DNA of 64,000 nucleotides. Source: Escherichia phage vB_vPM_PD06. The position numbers and the translations under genes are program-made. The stretch lies in the sequence record NC_052653.1; one strand, written 5' to 3'. This document shows, one piece after another, positions 30,770 through 34,392 of the stretch (position 1 is the stretch's first letter; every line of letters starts with the position of its first letter). The notes under the pieces are model-generated. The model ran no database searches. It saw only the letters and a program-made list of their open reading frames with translations, and was not told the DNA's origin.

Positions 30770-30882
30770 AATAAATACTGTTAAGTTGAAATGCTTTATT
30801 AGAATTGTGCGTTAAGGAGTCGCACCCCTCCATCTCAGAAGGAACTAGGCTTGTTCTTCGAAGACACCGCTGGCACGGAGTT

Positions 30883-30958
30883 TGGTCGTGGTAAACGGAG
30901 TCGAACCGTTGTTTCTCGATTATCGGTCGAGTGTACTAACCATCTGTACGATACCACA
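30883..30958 (-). tRNA. tRNA-Ile (anticodon GAT)
   Basis: Hand fold: 7 bp acceptor (U1-G72), T arm AACGG/TTCGACT/CCGTT, anticodon stem CTCGA/TCGAG, loop CCGATAA (C at position 33 is unusual), CCA encoded. Confidence 0.55.
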
Positions 30959-30963
30959 ATAAT

Positions 30964-31060
30964 TGGCAGCAAGGTGAGGAATCGAACCCCTTGATCTATG
31001 GTTTGGAGCCATATTGAGTACCATACTCTTTTAAATCTACCCAGCTATGAGTTCCTTGAG
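30964..31060 (-). ncRNA. tRNA-like sequence with Trp-type (CCA) anticodon hairpin, non-canonical 5' half
   Basis: T arm AGGGG/TTCGATT/CCTCA, 3' acceptor CCTTGCT-G-CCA, perfect hairpin TATGG-CTCCAAA-CCATA and D-like GAGT...ACTC, but no matching 5' acceptor strand at canonical distance. Confidence 0.3.
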
Positions 31061-31104
31061 GTGTCAATGTAATTTAATCATTACACCAGAAGGGAGGTAT
31101 TTAG

Positions 31105-31183
31105 TGGAGGCGGGAATCGGATTTGAACCGATGATCTCCAGCATATGAAACTGGCGAGGACGACCAGACTCCTCTATCCCGCG
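31105..31183 (-). tRNA. tRNA with CAT anticodon (elongator Met or Ile2 type)
   Basis: T arm ATCGG/TTCAAAT/CCGAT, anticodon stem CCAGT/GCTGG, loop TTCATAT, 11-nt D loop; position 1-72 is an unpaired C-C. Confidence 0.5.
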
Positions 31184-31198
31184 CAATCTGTAATAATT

Positions 31199-31283
31199 TG
31201 GTAGCTAAGGTGAGACTCGAACTCACAATCCCTTGGGGCAATACGTTCTAAGCGTATCGTGTATACCATTCCACCACTTAGCC
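31199..31283 (-). tRNA. tRNA-Leu (anticodon TAG), type II
   Basis: 85 nt; acceptor GGCTAAG/CTTAGCT, anticodon stem ATACG/CGTAT, loop CTTAGAA, long variable arm, T arm GTGAG/TTCGAGT/CTCAC, CCA encoded. Confidence 0.6.
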
Positions 31284-31360
31284 ATAATAAGTACACCACT
31301 GTAAGAAGCCTCAATGTGCTATTGACAGTTAACCAAGTCTACTCCTTGGATGGTGTTATT

Positions 31361-31435
31361 TGGTGCAGAGAGATGGTAACGATCCATCCTTTCTACCTTT
31401 TCAGGGTAGCACTAATCCGTCTCAGCTATCTCTGC
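31361..31435 (-). tRNA. tRNA-Phe (anticodon GAA)
   Basis: Perfect acceptor GCAGAGA/TCTCTGC, anticodon stem CTACC/GGTAG, loop CTGAAAA; T loop ATCGTTA is atypical. Confidence 0.5.
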
Positions 31436-31440
31436 AAATT

Positions 31441-31516
31441 TGGTCAGTGCGGCAGGACTCGAACCTGCGACCTGAAGCGTCCAAGGCTCCCACGCTACCA
31501 ACTGCGCTACGCACTG
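31441..31516 (-). tRNA. tRNA-Pro (anticodon TGG)
   Basis: 76 nt; acceptor CAGTGCG/CGCACTG, D arm GCGC/AGTTGGTA/GCGT, anticodon loop CTTGGAC, T arm GCAGG/TTCGAGT/CCTGC, CCA encoded. Confidence 0.7.
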
Positions 31517-31523
31517 TAAATCT

Positions 31524-31598
31524 TGGCTGGAGATCTAGGAATCGAACCTAGTCATCACGACTTCAAAGGCCGTTGCCTTCCCACTAGGCTAATCTCCA
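31524..31598 (-). tRNA. tRNA-Gln (anticodon TTG)
   Basis: 75 nt; acceptor TGGAGAT/ATCTCCA, anticodon stem ACGGC/GTCGT, loop CTTTGAA, T arm CTAGG/TTCGATT/CCTAG, CCA encoded. Confidence 0.6.
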
Positions 31599-32029
31599 AT
31601 AAATTACTTCAGTGTTACCACAAAGTGACGAACTGCTTTTCGTGCAGCAGAAGCCAGAGGCTTAGCATACTTAAGTTCATCTTTTTCCATTATAAATTCT
31701 CTTTTAAATGAAAATGCAGGACTTATTGGCATTGCCTGCGCAAGCCCTCAAGGGGAACATAGGTTTTTGGATATTTAACGACCAGGATAACCATAAACCC
31801 GTCATCATTCACATTCAAGAGGTACACCATAAAACTGCCGGGGTCTTAAAACTATAATGATTCGCAAATCATTAATCAGACAGTTCGATGGCTCCTCGAT
31901 TTTAGCTCACACTAAGGCAGTGAATCTCCAATAAACTAAAAAATCACTTAAAAAGAACCGCTAGAGTTTGAAGGAGAAAACCATGAGCGAAAAGAGAAAT
32001 TTTCTCTAGCGATTCCATTTAAATAATCT

Positions 32030-32104
32030 TGGAGCGAGTAACAGGACTTGAACCTGCACCTGGAGGGTGGAAACCTCATATGCTACCATTAACACTATAC
32101 CCGC
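32030..32104 (-). tRNA. tRNA-Gly (anticodon TCC)
   Basis: 75 nt; acceptor GCGGGTA/TACTCGC, anticodon loop TTTCCAC closed by a 4 bp stem with one mismatch, T arm GCAGG/TTCAAGT/CCTGT, CCA encoded. Confidence 0.5.
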
Positions 32105-32159
32105 TTAACAATATTACTCTAACATACTATTAGCCCCTTTGTCAAGAGGCTTTTGATAC

Positions 32160-32489
32160 TTATTTTAAAATAGTAGATGCACCACGTCTGTTTAGATATG
32201 CAATAGTAAAGTCCAAATCACCTATTTCTTCAGGTTCCCACTGACCTTCTAAGCCATAACAAGAACAATGATATGCGTGTACTTCATAAAACAAAGATGT
32301 TTTCATATCATAAAAATAAACGTGAGATTCACCTTCATAATATGCACAATCATAAGTGGCAGAAAGAATTACAATGTTATCCTTATCTAACTCTACTTCA
32401 TAATATCTTTCAACATCTTCAATATCATCAAAACCATCGAAAACATTGATATTAAAATATTTCTCTAACTCTTTTTCTGTCACATACAC
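32160..32489 (-). CDS. hypothetical protein inside tRNA array
   Basis: 109 aa acidic, Tyr/Cys-rich ORF between tRNA-Gly and tRNA-Thr. Confidence 0.45.
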   Translation of the reverse strand: MYVTEKELEKYFNINVFDGFDDIEDVERYYEVELDKDNIVILSATYDCAYYEGESHVYFYDMKTSLFYEVHAYHCSCYGLEGQWEPEEIGDLDFTIAYLNRRGASTILK

Positions 32490-32506
32490 TCCTTTAGAGT
32501 TAAAAT

Positions 32507-32581
32507 TGGTGCTCCCACAAGGACTCGAACCCTGATAAGTTGCTTACAAGGCAACCGTAATAGCCGTTATACGATAGGAGC
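32507..32581 (-). tRNA. tRNA-Thr (anticodon TGT)
   Basis: 75 nt; acceptor GCTCCTA/TGGGAGC, anticodon stem GTTGC/GCAAC, loop CTTGTAA, T arm CAGGG/TTCGAGT/CCTTG, CCA encoded. Confidence 0.6.
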
Positions 32582-32587
32582 AATACT

Positions 32588-32664
32588 TGGACTCGGCAGG
32601 ATTCGATACCTGCAATTCCAGAAGCCTCTTGGCGACTGGGGGTTTACCTTAACTCTACAAGTCC
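32588..32664 (-). ncRNA. tRNA-like sequence, non-canonical interior
   Basis: 7 bp acceptor-like pairing GGACTTG/CGAGTCC and perfect T stem GCAGG/CCTGC around 8-nt loop TATCGAAT, but no canonical 5-7-5 anticodon arm. Confidence 0.25.
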
Positions 32665-32671
32665 ATAATTC

Positions 32672-32756
32672 TGGCGATGGATCAAGGATTTGAACCTTGC
32701 TAGAACTTTCGTTCACGGATTAACAGTCCGTCGCCCAACCACTAGGCCAATCCATC
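32672..32756 (-). tRNA. tRNA with Asn anticodon (GTT) and a long variable arm (type II-like)
   Basis: 85 nt; acceptor GATGGAT/ATCCATC, anticodon arm ACGGA-CTGTTAA-TCCGT, 15-nt variable region GAACGAAAGTTCTAG forming a GAAC/GTTC stem with GAAA loop, T arm CAAGG/TTCAAAT/CCTTG, CCA encoded. Confidence 0.5.
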
Positions 32757-32763
32757 TTTAATT

Positions 32764-32850
32764 TGGTGCAGGTAGTTGGACTCGAACCAACGAAGCCCCG
32801 AAGGGCAAGAGATTTACAGTCTCCAGCAATTGCCGCTATGCGATACCTAC
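32764..32850 (-). tRNA. tRNA-Tyr (anticodon GTA), type II
   Basis: 87 nt; acceptor GTAGGTA/TACCTGC, anticodon stem GGAGA/TCTCT, loop CTGTAAA, variable arm GCCC-TTCG-GGGC, T arm GTTGG/TTCGAGT/CCAAC, CCA encoded. Confidence 0.65.
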
Positions 32851-32855
32851 GTGTT

Positions 32856-32931
32856 TGGTACATCGTGAAGGATTCGAACCTTCGACCTTGGAGTTAAAAG
32901 CACCTTGCTCTACCAACTAAGCTAACGATGT
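32856..32931 (-). tRNA. tRNA-Lys (anticodon TTT) with weakly paired anticodon stem
   Basis: 76 nt; perfect acceptor ACATCGT/ACGATGT, D arm GCTT/AGTTGGTA/GAGC, T arm GAAGG/TTCGAAT/CCTTC; anticodon loop CTTTTAA flanked by AGGTG/CTCCA with two mismatches. Confidence 0.5.
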
Positions 32932-33065
32932 ATAAATTATCTTTAAAATAGCCAGTGTTTGCGGCACTTAGCTATGAAGTATTGGGGTATCGGTAAAGTG
33001 GTTACCGCCACTTGCCGAAAGTTTACTCTGCTAAAGTAAGATTACAAGCTACATTAAAGATAACT

Positions 33066-33151
33066 TGGCGGTAGATGTAGGACTTGAACCTACACGCCGT
33101 TTCCGACGACAGTTTAGCAAACTGTTGTGGCTACCATTTCACCAATCTACC
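33066..33151 (-). tRNA. tRNA-Ser (anticodon GCT), type II
   Basis: 86 nt; acceptor GGTAGAT/ATCTACC, anticodon stem ACAGT/ACTGT, loop TTGCTAA, variable arm CGTCG-GAAA-CGGCG, T arm GTAGG/TTCAAGT/CCTAC, CCA encoded. Confidence 0.65.
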
Positions 33152-33159
33152 GTTCTTAA

Positions 33160-33312
33160 TTATTCAAAACAACCGGAATCTTTTTGTTCTGCTTTTACCA
33201 TACGAATATTTTTACCATCTTCAGATTGTTGAAGATTAGAATACTCATAAACAACTTTATTATCTACAATCTTAACTCCGGTAACAACCTGTCCAATAGT
33301 TTTATAATTCAT
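33160..33312 (-). CDS. small hypothetical protein (50 aa)
   Basis: Six-frame ORF 33160-33360 overlaps tRNA-Ser at its 5' end; internal ATG at 33312 has AGGAG upstream. Confidence 0.3.
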   Translation of the reverse strand: MNYKTIGQVVTGVKIVDNKVVYEYSNLQQSEDGKNIRMVKAEQKDSGCFE

Positions 33313-33330
33313 AAAGCTCCTAGTTGAATT

Positions 33331-33420
33331 TGGAGGAAGATAATGGAGTCGAACCATCACCGTATCGCTACAATGGGCCAGGGTTCAAACCTGGTTGCGC
33401 ACCGCTGCGCCCTACCTTCC
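33331..33420 (-). tRNA. tRNA-Ser (anticodon TGA), type II
   Basis: 90 nt; acceptor GGAAGGT/ATCTTCC, anticodon stem CCAGG/CCTGG, loop TTTGAAC, ~19-nt variable arm, T arm GATGG/TTCGACT/CCATT, CCA encoded. Confidence 0.6.
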
Positions 33421-33435
33421 CGTTATCATACTTTA

Positions 33436-33465
33436 AATCTAACATAAAACTATCTTGCTTGTCAA
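33436..33465 (-). promoter_or_regulatory. candidate sigma70-like promoter inside tRNA array
   Basis: Minus strand TTGACA, 18-nt spacer, TAGATT; upstream of tRNA-Ser(TGA). Confidence 0.3.
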
Positions 33466-33483
33466 GTAGTTTTTAAAACTTTT

Positions 33484-33565
33484 TGGTCGGGGTGACAGGA
33501 TTCGAACCTGCATACTCCAATTACTCGGTTAACGCCTGATTAGAAGTCAGGTGAGATACACCCCG
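33484..33565 (-). ncRNA. tRNA-Arg(TCT)-like sequence lacking a canonical D arm
   Basis: 7 bp GC-rich acceptor CGGGGTG/CACCCCG, T arm GCAGG/TTCGAAT/CCTGT, perfect hairpin CCTGA-CTTCTAA-TCAGG, but only 7 nt between acceptor and that hairpin and a 23-nt insert before the T arm. Confidence 0.35.
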
Positions 33566-33637
33566 TTTTCACAGTAACTATAACAAAAAACTAAGTGAAT
33601 GTCAAGATATTTTTACTAAAATTATTATTTAAATTGA

Positions 33638-33743
33638 AGCCTAGTTATGGAATCGAACCATATTTCGTATTTAGTTAGACAAAGCGGTCTAACATATTTT
33701 TCAGGCTTTGATGGCCTCGGAATTACCAAATACCCTACTAGGC
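33638..33743 (-). ncRNA. 106-nt tRNA-like element
   Basis: T arm TATGG/TTCGATT/CCATA and exact 7 bp acceptor pairing GCCTAGT/ACTAGGC 106 nt apart; interior has hairpins AGGC-CATCAAA-GCCT and GTTAGAC-CGCTTT-GTCTAAC; no CCA encoded. Confidence 0.25.
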
Positions 33744-33745
33744 GT

Positions 33746-33831
33746 TGGTGCAAGTGGAGGGATTCGAACCCTCAATCATTTAAGCGTTGCGTTTTAAGCA
33801 CAATGTGTATCACCAATTCCACCACACTTGC
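33746..33831 (-). tRNA. tRNA-Leu (anticodon TAA), type II
   Basis: 86 nt; acceptor GCAAGTG/CACTTGC, anticodon stem TTGTG/CGCAA, loop CTTAAAA, T arm GAGGG/TTCGAAT/CCCTC, CCA encoded. Confidence 0.6.
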
Positions 33832-33862
33832 ATATAGGAGATGCATAGCATCTCCTTTTAAA

Positions 33863-33938
33863 TGGTGGTTCCCCAGGGTTACAATCCCTGCCCTCGACAC
33901 TTATGAGGTGTGCGCTCTCGTCAGTGAGCTATGGAACC
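33863..33938 (-). tRNA. tRNA with CAT anticodon (second copy; Met or Ile2 type)
   Basis: 76 nt; D arm GCTC/GAGC perfect, anticodon loop CTCATAA, T stem CAGGG/CCCTG with atypical loop ATTGTAA, acceptor has one mismatch at 7-66. Confidence 0.45.
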
Positions 33939-33945
33939 TTGAATA

Positions 33946-34212
33946 TTAAGCATACTGGGTCATTTCACCAGCTTCGCGTTTCTCCAGAAGAACTGTAATC
34001 AAAGCAATAGCTGCTTCTTCTTCGTGAGGAAGCCCCATTTCATCCAGAAGAGCAAGGAAGTCAATTACCAAACTTTCTGTTTTAAGGCTAACGCTACCAT
34101 TTTCGTTTTCAGTAAGAACTGATTCAGGTTCAAAAATAAAGATTGCTCCACCTTTATTATCAATCAATACGTGCTTCTCAATCAGTTCTTTACCATAAGT
34201 ACGTTCTGTCAT
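33946..34212 (-). CDS. hypothetical protein
   Basis: 88 aa acidic ORF. Confidence 0.4.
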   Translation of the reverse strand: MTERTYGKELIEKHVLIDNKGGAIFIFEPESVLTENENGSVSLKTESLVIDFLALLDEMGLPHEEEAAIALITVLLEKREAGEMTQYA

Positions 34213-34392
34213 AGTTTTCTCCTTTTTGTTTAACTTGGGCTTATCTTAGCAAATAACTAGCTATGTTGTCAACTAGTTTTTACAATATTTTTTCTTGATC
34301 TGTAACCTAGTGTATAACCGCATACAAAGGATACAATAGCAATAAAAACAGATAAGCCAAAAATAATTTCTGTAGACATACTGTTTCCTTAA

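What the first reader, a model, noticed from the sequence alone, without database searches (positions are those of the whole stretch)
30883..33938. Dense minus-strand tRNA array: 15 hand-folded tRNAs plus 4 tRNA-like sequences
Within about 3 kb I could fold tRNAs for Ile(GAT), CAT x2, Leu(TAG), Leu(TAA), Phe, Pro, Gln, Gly, Thr, Asn-type, Tyr, Lys, Ser(GCT) and Ser(TGA), nearly all with encoded CCA and often 3-7 nt apart. Several have atypical anticodon or T loops. The array sits between NAD salvage genes and the lysis/packaging genes.
Basis: seen in the sequence. Interest (0 to 1): 0.55.

Follow-up and report, generated by a model that had tools for sequence, protein, structure and literature searches.

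The report
Phage tRNA gene cluster with odd members
This is the already annotated transfer-RNA gene cluster of a phi92-like E. coli phage; it is ordinary as a whole, but it also holds unannotated, conserved, oddly shaped tRNAs, including an arginine tRNA with no D arm.

Summary
Confirmed. Rfam's tRNA model passes 13 of them and adds a 16th.

The window is a Justusliebigvirus (phi92-like coliphage, 97-99% identical to SD2, muut and phi92). The array is annotated in those records, so it is already known. Its layout matches the T5 tRNA region: internal promoters, small ORFs, and tRNA-like RNAs.

Codon counts fit supply of codons that are rare in the host: AGA 9.7x, ACA 5.5x, ATA 4x enriched. The Lys-Tyr-Asn-Thr block matches the published targets of the PARIS and Septu tRNA nucleases.

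The "tRNA-like sequences" are mostly not junk:
- **33484-33565:** Arg(UCU) tRNA without a D arm. 99.5% of cells pair across 28 variants. It is essentially phage-restricted and is almost never found together with a canonical Arg(UCU).
- **30964-31046:** Trp(CCA) tRNA with an 8/4 fold.
- **33635-33743:** selenocysteine-tRNA-like UCA element with A33.
- **32587-32665:** homologue of T5 "RNA3".

Asn(GUU) carries a covarying long variable arm, and Ser(UGA) has an 8/4 fold. No paper describing the D-armless Arg tRNA was found.

The parts
34243..34272 (-). Promoter-like site (TTGACA-18-TAAGAT with TG) upstream of small ORF 33946-34212; probable start of the first transcription unit
   Evidence: the ORF matches phrog_15056 of unknown function
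33863..33938 (-). tRNA with CAT anticodon, probably tRNA-Ile2 (lysidine, reads AUA); odd T loop ATTGTAA and a D loop without GG
   Evidence: ARAGORN; not passed by Rfam; acceptor and anticodon loop resemble T5 tRNA-Ile2(CAU); ATA is 4x enriched in phage ORFs. The Ile2 assignment is inferred.
33832..33862 (-). Perfect 9-bp hairpin (AGGAGATGC-TAT-GCATCTCCT) between two tRNAs; role unknown
   Evidence: sequence; 97% conserved in phi92 and muut
33746..33831 (-). tRNA-Leu(TAA)
   Evidence: 57 bits
33635..33743 (-). tRNA-Sec-like element with anticodon UCA. It has a 7-bp acceptor stem, a 6-bp D stem with a 4-nt loop, the anticodon loop CATCAAA (A33), a long variable region containing a 7-bp hairpin, U73, and TCA in place of CCA.
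   Evidence: Fold. Homologues in Erwinia Henunavirus phages are annotated tRNA-sup(tca); a homologue is also present in Salmonella phage UTK0002. RNAalifold finds 8 compensatory pairs among 4 sequences. The element is deleted in phi92.
33577..33605 (-). Best promoter match in the region (TTGACA-17-TATAGT, 11 of 12), ending about 12 nt before the Arg tRNA 5' end
33484..33565 (-). Non-canonical tRNA-Arg(UCU) without a D arm. Layout: acceptor stem 7 bp, invariant 7-nt connector UAUCUCA, anticodon arm (loop CUUCUAA), near-invariant 23-nt segment with a 3-bp mini-hairpin, T arm, A73, CCA.
   Evidence: Rfam tRNA 40 bits; missed by ARAGORN. Across 28 distinct homologues, 99.5% of cells pair, 14 of 20 pairs show changes on both sides, and 0 of 500 shuffles match. 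Distribution. Complementary to canonical Arg(tct).
33436..33465 (-). Promoter-like site (TTGACA-18-TAGATT with TG) ahead of Ser(UGA)
33331..33420 (-). tRNA-Ser(UGA) with an 8/4 acceptor/T-stem fold, a 5-bp D stem with a 4-nt loop, a 7-bp variable arm capped by GCGA, and U73
   Evidence: ARAGORN; Rfam scores it only on the Sec model at 35 bits; fold. The 8th acceptor pair is A-U here and G-C in PVP-SE1, and the D stem covaries. It is 85.6% identical to T5 tRNA-Ser1(UGA), which the T5 record notes becomes an effective amber suppressor.
33160..33312 (-). Small ORF (50 aa) inside the array, function unknown
   Evidence: phrog_22441; phi92 gp111
33066..33151 (-). tRNA-Ser(GCT)
   Evidence: 54 bits; 96.5% identical to phAPEC8
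32932..33065 (-). Structured non-tRNA RNA of about 130 nt, closed by an 11+5 bp stem; function unknown
   Evidence: fold z-score -3.9, 0 of 200 shuffles as stable; 4 compensatory pairs among 4 relatives
32856..32931 (-). tRNA-Lys(UUU); positions 36-41 read UAACUC, against UAAUCA in E. coli
   Evidence: (66 bits); PARIS cleavage site from PMC12409363
32764..32850 (-). tRNA-Tyr(GUA) with its own variable arm (GCCC-TTCG-GGGC)
32672..32756 (-). tRNA-Asn(GUU) of class II shape: 3-bp D stem and a 4-bp variable-arm hairpin capped by GAAA; G73
   Evidence: (56.5 bits). In the variable arm, 3 of 4 pairs are compensatory across 6 phages.
32587..32665 (-). tRNA-like RNA, homologue of T5 'RNA3'. It has an acceptor-like stem, the conserved block TAGAGTTAAG-TAAACC, a variable hairpin, a T-like arm with an 8-nt loop, no U33 and no CCA.
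   Evidence: ARAGORN only at a relaxed threshold. Same position directly 3' of tRNA-Asn as T5 rna3. 10 of 19 pairs are compensatory in 3 sequences. 99% identical to phAPEC8.
32507..32581 (-). tRNA-Thr(UGU); G39 replaces the U39 of the E. coli PARIS site
   Evidence: PMC12409363
32160..32489 (-). ORF of 109 aa inside the array, function unknown
   Evidence: phrog_8792; no Pfam hit
32116..32145 (-). Promoter-like site (TTGACA-18-TAGAGT with TG) ahead of tRNA-Gly
32030..32104 (-). tRNA-Gly(UCC)
31591..31938 (-). Rearranged segment 98-99% identical to T4-like phages. It comprises the intergenic DNA downstream of rIII plus the last 28 codons of rIII, read here as a 42-aa ORF at 31604-31732.
31524..31598 (-). 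tRNA-Gln(UUG)
31441..31516 (-). tRNA-Pro(UGG)
   Evidence: 93% identical to PVP-SE1
31361..31435 (-). tRNA-Phe(GAA) with A54/U58 in the T loop (ATCGTTA)
   Evidence: (49 bits); flagged as a pseudogene in phi92
31284..31360 (-). Weak tRNA-like remnant: a 7-bp terminal stem and no T arm. Possibly a decayed tRNA.
   Evidence: fold z-score -1.7; only a weak hit outside the genus, 77% to a Klebsiella phage tRNA-Ala region
31199..31283 (-). tRNA-Leu(UAG)
31105..31183 (-). Initiator-like tRNA(CAU): acceptor CGCGGGA with a C1.C72 mismatch; belongs to the T5 tRNA-fMet family
   Evidence: Position 1-72 is mismatched in all four relatives. T5 annotation.
30964..31046 (-). Non-canonical tRNA-Trp(CCA): 8-bp acceptor stem and 4-bp T stem, an extra 9-nt connector, a 6-bp D stem with a TGG loop, G73, CCA
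   Evidence: Rfam sub-threshold at 22.9 bits; ARAGORN only at a relaxed threshold. Homologues occur in 6 other phages, and the one in PVP-SE1 is annotated tRNA-Trp. 15 of 22 pairs are compensatory.
30883..30958 (-). tRNA-Ile(GAU) with C33
   Evidence: C33 is also present in one PVP-SE1 Ile tRNA
30751..30769 (-). Intrinsic terminator-like hairpin plus T run that closes the array

Best explanation
This is the tRNA gene region of a phi92-like (Justusliebigvirus) E. coli myovirus.

**Transcription and processing (inferred).** The region is transcribed on the minus strand from several strong sigma-70-type promoters, and transcription ends at one terminator (30751-30769). The polycistronic RNAs are presumably cut by the host tRNA-processing enzymes. 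The 2-7 nt spacers and the encoded CCA ends fit this.

**Products.** There are 15 tRNAs found by standard tools, plus at least two unannotated non-canonical decoders: a D-armless tRNA-Arg(UCU) and an 8/4-fold tRNA-Trp(CCA). There are also further tRNA-shaped RNAs: a Sec-like UCA element and a homologue of T5 RNA3.

**Function.**
1. The tRNAs supply decoders for A/U-ending codons that the 37% GC phage uses heavily and E. coli uses rarely (AGA, ACA, AUA, CUA, UCA, GGA, UUA).
2. The contiguous Lys-Tyr-Asn-Thr block replaces exactly the host tRNAs that known anti-phage tRNA nucleases cut. The phage copies have altered cleavage-site or body features.

**Shown versus inferred.** Shown here: the genes, their folds, their conservation and covariation, the codon bias, and the promoter and terminator matches. 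Inferred: expression, processing, charging, decoding, and resistance to nucleases.
For: **The tRNA genes.** There are 15 ARAGORN tRNAs, 13 of which also pass Rfam, plus one extra Rfam hit. All have encoded CCA. The array is annotated in phi92 and muut.

**Transcription signals.** Five of the top promoter matches are co-oriented with the tRNAs, and one terminator follows the last tRNA.

**Codon usage.**
- Phage/host frequency ratios are AGA 9.7, ACA 5.5, ATA 4.0, CTA 2.8, TCA 2.5, GGA 2.3 and TTA 2.3.
- Each of these codons is matched by a phage anticodon.
- Cognate codons are enriched relative to the rest (Mann-Whitney p=0.014).

**D-armless Arg(UCU).**
- Covariation is strong: 99.5% of cells pair and 0 of 500 shuffles match.
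- Position 73 is a purine in 27 of 28 variants.
- Relatives without it carry a canonical Arg(tct).
- Only 1 of 41 loci that have it also has a canonical Arg(tct), although 14 carry other Arg tRNAs.

**Trp, Asn and Ser.** Structural covariation is shown.

**Links to T5.** Homologues of the window's Ser(UGA) and of its initiator-like tRNA are annotated in T5; the Ser(UGA) homologue carries a functional note.

**Defence targets.**
- PARIS AriB cuts E. coli tRNA-Lys(UUU), Thr(UGU) and Asn(GUU) at U36AAUC|A41, and changes at U39 or A41 block cutting (PMC12409363).
- Septu cuts the tRNA-Tyr variable loop (PMC13096335).
- The window's Lys reads UAACUC and its Thr reads UAAGCA at that site.
Against: There are no expression, processing or charging data for this phage.

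The two roles cannot be separated by sequence alone. The codon test rests on 64 mechanically chosen ORFs and a 42-gene host sample.

Asn keeps the E. coli PARIS site (UAAUCC), so any resistance would have to come from the body of the tRNA.

Several members break rules thought to be needed for function:
- C33 in Ile.
- A54/U58 in Phe.
- No D arm in Arg, although the main E. coli ArgRS identity element, A20, lies in the D loop (my own knowledge).

The UCA element has A33 and no CCA, and it is deleted in phi92, so it is dispensable.
Confidence: 0.85

Rival explanations
1. The array exists mainly as a counter-defence: it provides spare, nuclease-resistant copies of host tRNAs that anti-phage tRNases destroy. 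On this view codon supply is only a side effect.
For: Lys, Tyr, Asn and Thr sit together (32507-32931). They are exactly the published PARIS targets (Lys, Thr, Asn) and the Septu target (Tyr). Lys and Thr differ from E. coli at position 39, where a change abolishes AriB cutting, and Lys also at position 41, where a change reduces it. Ile has C33. Asn has an extra arm that covaries. Homing endonucleases associate with phage tRNA genes in relatives.
Against: The best-matched codons (AGA, ACA, ATA, CTA) are also the most phage-enriched, which the codon-supply model predicts directly. Tyr, Asn and Lys cognate codons (TAC, AAC, AAA) are only 0.9-1.4x enriched, so both roles probably coexist. No resistance was measured.
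Confidence: 0.35
2. The tRNA-like sequences in the gaps are decaying tRNA pseudogenes with no function, left over from gain and loss in a fast-evolving array.
For: Relatives carry different sets. Klebsiella phage phi1_175008 has Asp, Glu, Ala, Val and Arg tRNAs where this phage has gaps. The UCA element is deleted in phi92, and here it has a U.U mismatch in the D stem and TCA instead of CCA. Element 31284-31360 has a weak fold and only a faint match to a tRNA-Ala region.
Against: Compensatory changes across phage families argue for selection on structure in four of the elements:
- Arg.
- Trp: 15 of 22 pairs.
- UCA element: 8 pairs.
- RNA3-like: 10 of 19 pairs.

The RNA3-like element is 99% identical to phAPEC8, while the flanking Asn and Thr are only 73-77% identical.
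Confidence: 0.2
3. The non-canonical members (D-armless Arg, UCA element, RNA3-like) are not decoders. On this view they are tRNA mimics that act as decoys or inhibitors of host tRNA-targeting enzymes, or as processing punctuation.
For: The PARIS paper itself raises the possibility that viral tRNAs act as AriB inhibitors when abundant. The UCA element has an invariant A33, and RNA3-like lacks a 7-nt anticodon loop. T5 and T4 tRNA regions are long known to encode tRNA-like stable RNAs of unknown function (the T4 part is my own knowledge).
Against: For the Arg member, four features argue for decoding:
- The anticodon loop CUUCUAA is invariant.
- Position 73 is a purine in 27 of 28 variants.
- Its distribution is complementary to canonical Arg(tct).
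- AGA shows a 9.7x excess in phage ORFs.

Trp keeps a normal anticodon loop, G73 and CCA.
Confidence: 0.25
4. The hand-folded cloverleaves are chance structures in AT-rich non-coding DNA.
For: None beyond two members that fail Rfam's tRNA threshold.
Against: Rfam E-values are 1e-7 to 1e-12 for 13 genes. All 15 ARAGORN hits cluster in 3 kb of a 64 kb window. The genes are conserved and annotated in dozens of phage genomes.
Confidence: 0.01

Closest known systems
tRNA gene region of coliphage T5 (NC_005859, about 28-41 kb)
   Same: Both have many co-oriented tRNA genes interspersed with their own promoters, small ORFs and tRNA-like RNAs. Direct homologues include Ser(UGA) (85.6% identical), the initiator-like tRNA, the Arg acceptor and T arms, and RNA3, which lies directly 3' of tRNA-Asn in both phages.
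   Different: The phage family differs: a myovirus of Stephanstirmvirinae here, Demerecviridae for T5. There are 15-19 genes here against 24 in T5. No homing endonuclease gene lies inside this copy. T5 has ordinary Arg, Trp and Asn tRNAs where this phage has the D-armless, 8/4 and class II forms.
The same array in phi92, muut, SD2 and other Justusliebigvirus genomes
   Same: Identity is 97-99.4% over the whole region, with the same gene order. The 15 tRNAs are annotated there.
   Different: phi92 lacks the UCA element. phi92 and muut carry a divergent RNA3-like variant. SD2 has an HNH endonuclease insertion. The Arg and Trp non-canonical genes are unannotated in most of the records listed.
(8/4) tRNAs and allo-tRNAs (Mukai et al. 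2017, PMC5389517)
   Same: Shared features are an 8-bp acceptor stem plus a 4-bp T stem, a long D stem with a tiny loop, and a long variable arm. That paper reports (8/4) tRNA-Ser in bacteriophages. The window's Ser(UGA) fits this, and Trp(CCA) shares the 8/4 fold and the long D stem.
   Different: Trp has no long variable arm, and it has an extra 9-nt connector. No (8/4) tRNA-Trp is mentioned in the passages I read. The UCA element is 7/5, not 8/4, and has A33.
D-armless mitochondrial tRNAs (for example metazoan mt-tRNA-Ser(AGY))
   Same: In both, the D hairpin is replaced by a short connector while the acceptor, anticodon and T arms are kept (PMC4013460 abstract).
   Different: This tRNA is encoded by phages of Enterobacteria, carries an Arg(UCU) anticodon, has a conserved 23-nt segment with a mini-hairpin between the anticodon and T arms, and has a fully standard T loop. 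There is no evolutionary link. It would have to work with bacterial ArgRS, EF-Tu and ribosomes.
T5 tRNA-Lys, Thr and Asn variants that neutralise the PARIS defence
   Same: The same three anticodons are involved. Lys and Thr are changed at positions 39 to 41 of the AriB site.
   Different: The substitutions differ: C39/U40/C41 here against A39/C41 in T5 Lys. Asn is unchanged at the site but has a long variable arm. Resistance was not tested.

Membership tests
Canonical tRNA (Rfam RF00005 / ARAGORN cloverleaf) | Covariance-model score at or above the gathering score of 29 bits | tested here: met
   13 of the 15 score 48-66 bits. The D-armless Arg scores 40 bits. Ser(UGA) and CAT 33863 do not pass, and the Trp-like element scores 22.9 bits.
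Canonical tRNA (Rfam RF00005 / ARAGORN cloverleaf) | Four-arm cloverleaf with a 7-nt anticodon loop, U33, and a T loop of the TTCRANY type | tested here: inconclusive
   The cloverleaf is present in all 15. However, Ile has C33, and Phe and CAT 33863 have A54/T58 T loops. Arg lacks the D arm, and Trp and Ser(UGA) are 8/4.
Canonical tRNA (Rfam RF00005 / ARAGORN cloverleaf) | Aminoacylation and decoding | not testable with these tools
   Support is indirect only: codon match, the purine at position 73 of Arg, and the functional note on the T5 homologue of Ser(UGA).
Phage tRNA gene cluster of the T5/T4 type | Many co-oriented tRNA genes in a lytic phage genome, with internal promoters and small ORFs | tested here: met
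   the phage identity comes
Phage tRNA gene cluster of the T5/T4 type | Interspersed tRNA-like RNAs of unknown function | tested here: met
   Element 32587-32665 is homologous to T5 RNA3. The structured RNA at 32932-33065 is a further example.
Phage tRNA gene cluster of the T5/T4 type | Associated homing endonuclease genes | tested here: not met
   No such ORF lies inside 30883-33938. One is present in SD2 and next to homologues in Alf5 and Roth37.
(8/4) tRNA / allo-tRNA group (Mukai et al. 2017) | 12-bp acceptor branch split 8/4 rather than 7/5 | tested here: met
   In Ser(UGA), the 8th pair is A-U here and G-C in PVP-SE1. In Trp, column pair 8-72 is UA, AU or CG, and the T stem has 4 bp.
(8/4) tRNA / allo-tRNA group (Mukai et al. 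2017) | Long D stem with a tetraloop, and a long variable arm | tested here: inconclusive
   Ser(UGA) has a 5-bp D stem with a 4-nt loop and a 7-bp variable arm. Trp has a 6-bp D stem with a 3-nt loop but only a 6-nt variable region.
tRNA-Sec (Rfam RF01852) | Score at or above 47 bits; bacterial 8/5 fold; UCA anticodon with U33 | tested here: not met
   Ser(UGA) scores 35.3 bits and has anticodon UGA. The UCA element has the anticodon and the 6-bp/4-nt D arm, but it is 7/4-5, has an invariant A33, and gives no Rfam hit.
D-armless tRNA (mitochondrial type) | No D hairpin; the other three arms are kept and covary | tested here: met
   helices 1-7/72-78, 15-19/27-31 and 55-59/67-71 are 99-100% paired. 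The 7-nt connector is invariant, so nothing can be said about whether it pairs.
D-armless tRNA (mitochondrial type) | Mitochondrial genome origin | tested here: not met
   It is found in phages of Enterobacteria and in IMG/VR contigs, with 2 hits in 185,579 prokaryotic species genomes. It works like this class at most; it is not a member.
Class II tRNA (long variable arm: Leu, Ser, Tyr in bacteria) | Base-paired variable arm and a 3-bp D stem | tested here: met
   Asn(GUU) has a 4-bp arm with a GAAA loop, and 3 of 4 pairs are compensatory in 6 phages. The Asn anticodon lies outside the usual class II set.

The most novel reading that the evidence does not exclude
The gene at 33484-33565 would encode a working tRNA-Arg(UCU) that has no D arm, and it would be the phage's only decoder for AGA/AGG, the codons most over-used relative to E. 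coli. If so, a three-armed elongator tRNA is charged by a bacterial ArgRS and used by bacterial EF-Tu and ribosomes. The family would be an overlooked, essentially phage-restricted tRNA class, spread over at least six phage groups and usually left unannotated. A weaker companion claim is that the class II tRNA-Asn and the A33 UCA element are body-modified tRNAs selected to escape or jam host tRNA nucleases.
Probability: 0.5. Interest if true: 0.7.

Novelty: already known. Interest (0 to 1): 0.4.

Why it matters
The array itself adds nothing new. It is annotated in phi92-like phages and follows the T5 pattern.

Its value is as a worked example. The codon-supply and anti-defence explanations for phage tRNAs both leave marks in one locus here. 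Standard annotation also misses real genes in it: two to four conserved tRNA-shaped RNAs are unannotated in most of the public records examined here.

If the D-armless Arg(UCU) decodes, it would show that a bacterial translation system accepts a three-armed tRNA. D-armless tRNAs are best documented in animal mitochondria. Such a tRNA would also be a compact natural scaffold for tRNA engineering.

Tried and rejected
**Literature.** Five full-text searches looked for a description of a D-armless phage tRNA or a long-variable-arm tRNA-Asn. They found nothing relevant. One of them was spoiled because "armless" matched "harmless". This is weak negative evidence only.

**Is the Asn tRNA a Ser-accepting missense tRNA?** I considered this because of its Ser-like D arm and variable arm. 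I rejected it as the main reading. It keeps the E. coli Asn anticodon arm and G73. It has A2-U71 rather than the G2-C71 of tRNA-Ser. Its arm is only 4 bp. The identity rules used here are my own knowledge, and charging was not tested.

**Does the UCA element drive programmed UGA read-through?** 10 of 64 ORFs end in TGA, but the in-frame extensions are only 1-15 codons. There is no support.

**Is linkage of the UCA element to the D-armless Arg seen in IMG/VR contigs independent evidence?** No. Those contigs are fragments of the same phage genus.

**Alternative pairings of the invariant UAUCUCA connector with either GAG of the 23-nt segment.** All these columns are invariant, so covariation cannot decide.

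**Relaxed ARAGORN runs and the mitochondrial mode.** These gave several obviously spurious calls on both strands, so I used them only as pointers.

**Sub-threshold Rfam hits (RyhB, plastid UTR families and others).** These are chance-level and were ignored.

Full report
**1.

ARAGORN on the whole window returns 15 tRNA genes. All lie on the minus strand between 30883 and 33938, and none lies elsewhere in the 64 kb. Every gene ends in an encoded CCA.

Rfam's tRNA model passes 13 of the 15 at 48-66 bits (gathering score 29) and adds a further hit at 33487-33565. The two failures are both structurally odd genes. Ser(TGA) scores only on the tRNA-Sec model, at 35 bits and below threshold. CAT 33863-33938 has the T loop ATTGTAA.

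Spacers of 5-7 nt between neighbours are real. So are the atypical loops:
- C33 in Ile.
- TTCATAT in CAT 31105.
- ATCGTTA in the Phe T loop.

The neighbours are as stated. A NAPRTase and a PRPP-synthetase-like gene lie upstream. Terminase large subunit and portal lie downstream.

**2. Identity of the window**

The region is 99.4% identical to Escherichia phage SD2 and about 97.5% identical to muut and phi92, all of the genus Justusliebigvirus in Stephanstirmvirinae. The muut and phi92 records annotate the same 15 genes. phi92 flags Phe and Ser(TGA) as pseudogenes and calls CAT 33863 a "hypothetical tRNA". The array as such is therefore already known.

**3. Organisation**

Promoter-like sites with TTGACA, a 17-18 nt spacer and a TG-extended -10 element lie on the tRNA strand:
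- 34272-34243.
- 33605-33577, the best match in the region at 11 of 12.
- 33465-33436.
- 32145-32116.

A terminator-like hairpin at 30769-30751 follows the last tRNA. Three small ORFs of unknown function sit inside the array.

This is the layout annotated for the T5 tRNA region. That region has promoters, small ORFs, HNH genes and several "tRNA-like stable RNAs with unknown functions".

**4. Why the phage carries these tRNAs**

I counted codons in 64 long ORFs of the window (16,582 codons) and in 42 annotated MG1655 genes (14,748 codons). The codons most enriched in the phage are:

| Codon | Phage/host ratio |
|---|---|
| AGA | 9.7 |
| ACA | 5.5 |
| ATA | 4.0 |
| AGG | 4.0 |
| CTA | 2.8 |
| TCA | 2.5 |
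| GGA | 2.3 |
| TTA | 2.3 |

Each A-ending codon in this list is the Watson-Crick cognate of a phage tRNA. ATA would be read by a CAT tRNA carrying lysidine (inferred), and AGG only by wobble from the Arg(UCU) tRNA. Cognate codons are enriched relative to the other codons (one-sided Mann-Whitney p=0.014).

Separately, Lys(UUU), Tyr(GUA), Asn(GUU) and Thr(UGU) are contiguous at 32507-32931. PARIS AriB cuts E. coli tRNA-Lys(UUU), Thr(UGU) and Asn(GUU) at U36AAUC|A41. Changing U39 abolishes cutting, and changing A41 substantially reduces it. T5 versions of the three tRNAs neutralise PARIS (PMC12409363). [quoted passage not shown]

In the window, Lys reads UAACUC and Thr reads UAAGCA at that site. 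Asn keeps UAAUCC. Both roles are therefore plausible, and they are not exclusive. Resistance was not measured.

**5. The tRNA-like sequences**

*(a) 33484-33565: tRNA-Arg(UCU) without a D arm.*

Its layout is:
- a 7-bp acceptor stem;
- an invariant 7-nt connector, TATCTCA;
- a 5-bp anticodon stem with the loop CTTCTAA;
- a 23-nt near-invariant segment, CGTTAAYCGAGTAANYGGAGTAT;
- a normal T arm;
- a purine at position 73, then CCA.

About 85%-identical copies occur in Felixounavirus, Asteriusvirus jumbo phages, Kuravirus, Mydovirus and a T5-like Klebsiella phage. They are mostly unannotated or labelled "tRNA-OTHER". A pattern scan of IMG/VR gave 41 loci.

On 28 distinct sequences, 99.5% of cells pair, 14 of 20 pairs show changes on both sides, and no shuffle out of 500 reaches the observed values. 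Slid controls drop to 31-51% paired. The mini-hairpin 38-40/47-49 shows only one-sided changes.

Relatives that lack this gene (phAPEC8, PVP-SE1, Klebsiella phage phi1_175008) each carry a canonical Arg(tct). Of the 41 loci that have the gene, only one also has a canonical Arg(tct), although 14 carry Arg(acg) or Arg(tcg). The loci are partial, so absence is not proven.

The same pattern occurs only twice in 185,579 prokaryotic species genomes, both times on MAG contigs. Its acceptor and T arms match those of T5 tRNA-Arg.

*(b) 30964-31046: tRNA-Trp(CCA).*

Homologues occur in Klebsiella FKP3, Hafnia SarahDanielle, "Listeria" LPML1, Citrobacter Tr1, Pectobacterium POP15 and PVP-SE1. Only the PVP-SE1 copy is annotated as tRNA-Trp.

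RNAalifold gives an 8-bp acceptor stem, a 4-bp T stem, a 9-nt extra connector and a 6-bp D stem with a TGG loop. 15 of 22 pairs are compensatory.

*(c) 33635-33743: Sec-like UCA element.*

It has a 6-bp D stem with a 4-nt loop, the anticodon loop CATCAAA with an invariant A33, a long variable region and U73. Homologues in Erwinia Henunavirus phages are annotated tRNA-sup(tca) and end in CCA. The window copy ends in TCA.

It is deleted in phi92. TGA-terminated ORFs show no long read-through frames.

*(d) 32587-32665: homologue of T5 RNA3.*

It sits directly 3' of tRNA-Asn, as RNA3 does in T5, and has compensatory acceptor, hairpin and T-stem changes. It is 99% identical to phAPEC8, although the flanking Asn and Thr are only 73-77% identical.

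*(e) 31284-31360: weak remnant only.*

**6. Unusual members among the 15**

- **Asn(GUU).** It has a class II shape. Its 4-bp variable arm is capped by an invariant GAAA loop and is fully compensated in phAPEC8, PVP-SE1, phi1_175008 and the Providencia and Proteus phages. T5 and Kuttervirus Asn tRNAs are ordinary.
- **Ser(UGA).** It is an 8/4 tRNA with a 5-bp D stem and a 4-nt loop. It is 85.6% identical to T5 tRNA-Ser1, which the T5 record notes becomes an effective amber suppressor. (8/4) tRNA-Ser in phages was reported by Mukai et al. (PMC5389517).
- **CAT 31105.** It belongs to the T5 tRNA-fMet family. Its 1-72 position is mismatched in every relative.

**7. Evolution**

The array is a mosaic. 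Against phAPEC8, some elements are 96-99% identical (Ser GCT, RNA3-like, CAT 31105), while their neighbours are 73-78% identical. Relatives hold different tRNA sets.

**8. Verdict**

The finding is real and correctly interpreted, and the array is already known. The added value is that most of the "tRNA-like" sequences are conserved, structurally constrained genes. The D-armless Arg(UCU) is the most notable of them. I found no paper that describes it, but that search covers open-access text only.

Noticed in passing
window 31591-31938: A 348-bp stretch inside the tRNA array is 98-99% identical to T4-like phages (Tequatrovirus), but it is rearranged. Two pieces match the roughly 400-nt unannotated DNA downstream of rIII, and the third piece is the last 28 codons of rIII. 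This points to recent exchange between unrelated phage families. What the T4 intergenic DNA does is unknown to me.
   Followed up: partly
window 32932-33065: A roughly 130-nt non-tRNA element between Ser(GCT) and Lys folds far better than shuffles (z-score -3.9). It keeps its long closing stem through 4 compensatory changes in phi92, muut and phAPEC8. It may be a stable RNA like those annotated in the T5 tRNA region.
   Followed up: partly
window 33832-33862: A perfect 9-bp hairpin (AGGAGATGC TAT GCATCTCCT) lies between the first CAT tRNA and Leu(TAA) and is conserved in relatives. Its role is unknown (processing site?).
   Followed up: no
window 30770-30882: The stretch between tRNA-Ile and the terminator is 92% identical to phAPEC8 and 82% identical to a Klebsiella relative, which is better conserved than several of the tRNAs. 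It could be another small RNA or a 3' processing element. Its weak Rfam RyhB hit is probably just the terminator.
   Followed up: no
window 30883-33938 compared with L050 (phAPEC8): Identity is strongly mosaic. Ser(GCT), the RNA3-like element and CAT 31105 are 96-99% identical to phAPEC8, whereas the adjacent Asn, Thr and Pro are 73-77% identical. This suggests gene-by-gene exchange within tRNA arrays.
   Followed up: partly
public records hit: Several GenBank records named as Campylobacter, Listeria or Enterococcus phages are near-identical to coliphage or Ounavirinae sequences. They are probably mislabelled or contaminated.
   Followed up: no
window 32160-32489: The 109-aa ORF inside the array matches phrog_8792 (unknown function). 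It also matches, more weakly (E=5e-15), a PHROG labelled integrase. It has no Pfam hit.
   Followed up: no
window 33863-33938: The CAT tRNA has T56 instead of C56 in the T loop, and its D loop (ACTGACGA) lacks GG. A G18/A19 reading would keep the elbow pairs: G19-C56 would become A19-U56. This is seen by eye only.
   Followed up: no
L003 (Alf5), L007 (Roth37), SD2 hit H1: HNH homing endonuclease genes sit next to the D-armless Arg gene in Alf5 and Roth37, and one is inserted in the SD2 copy of this array. This fits the reported link between homing endonucleases and phage tRNA genes.
   Followed up: no
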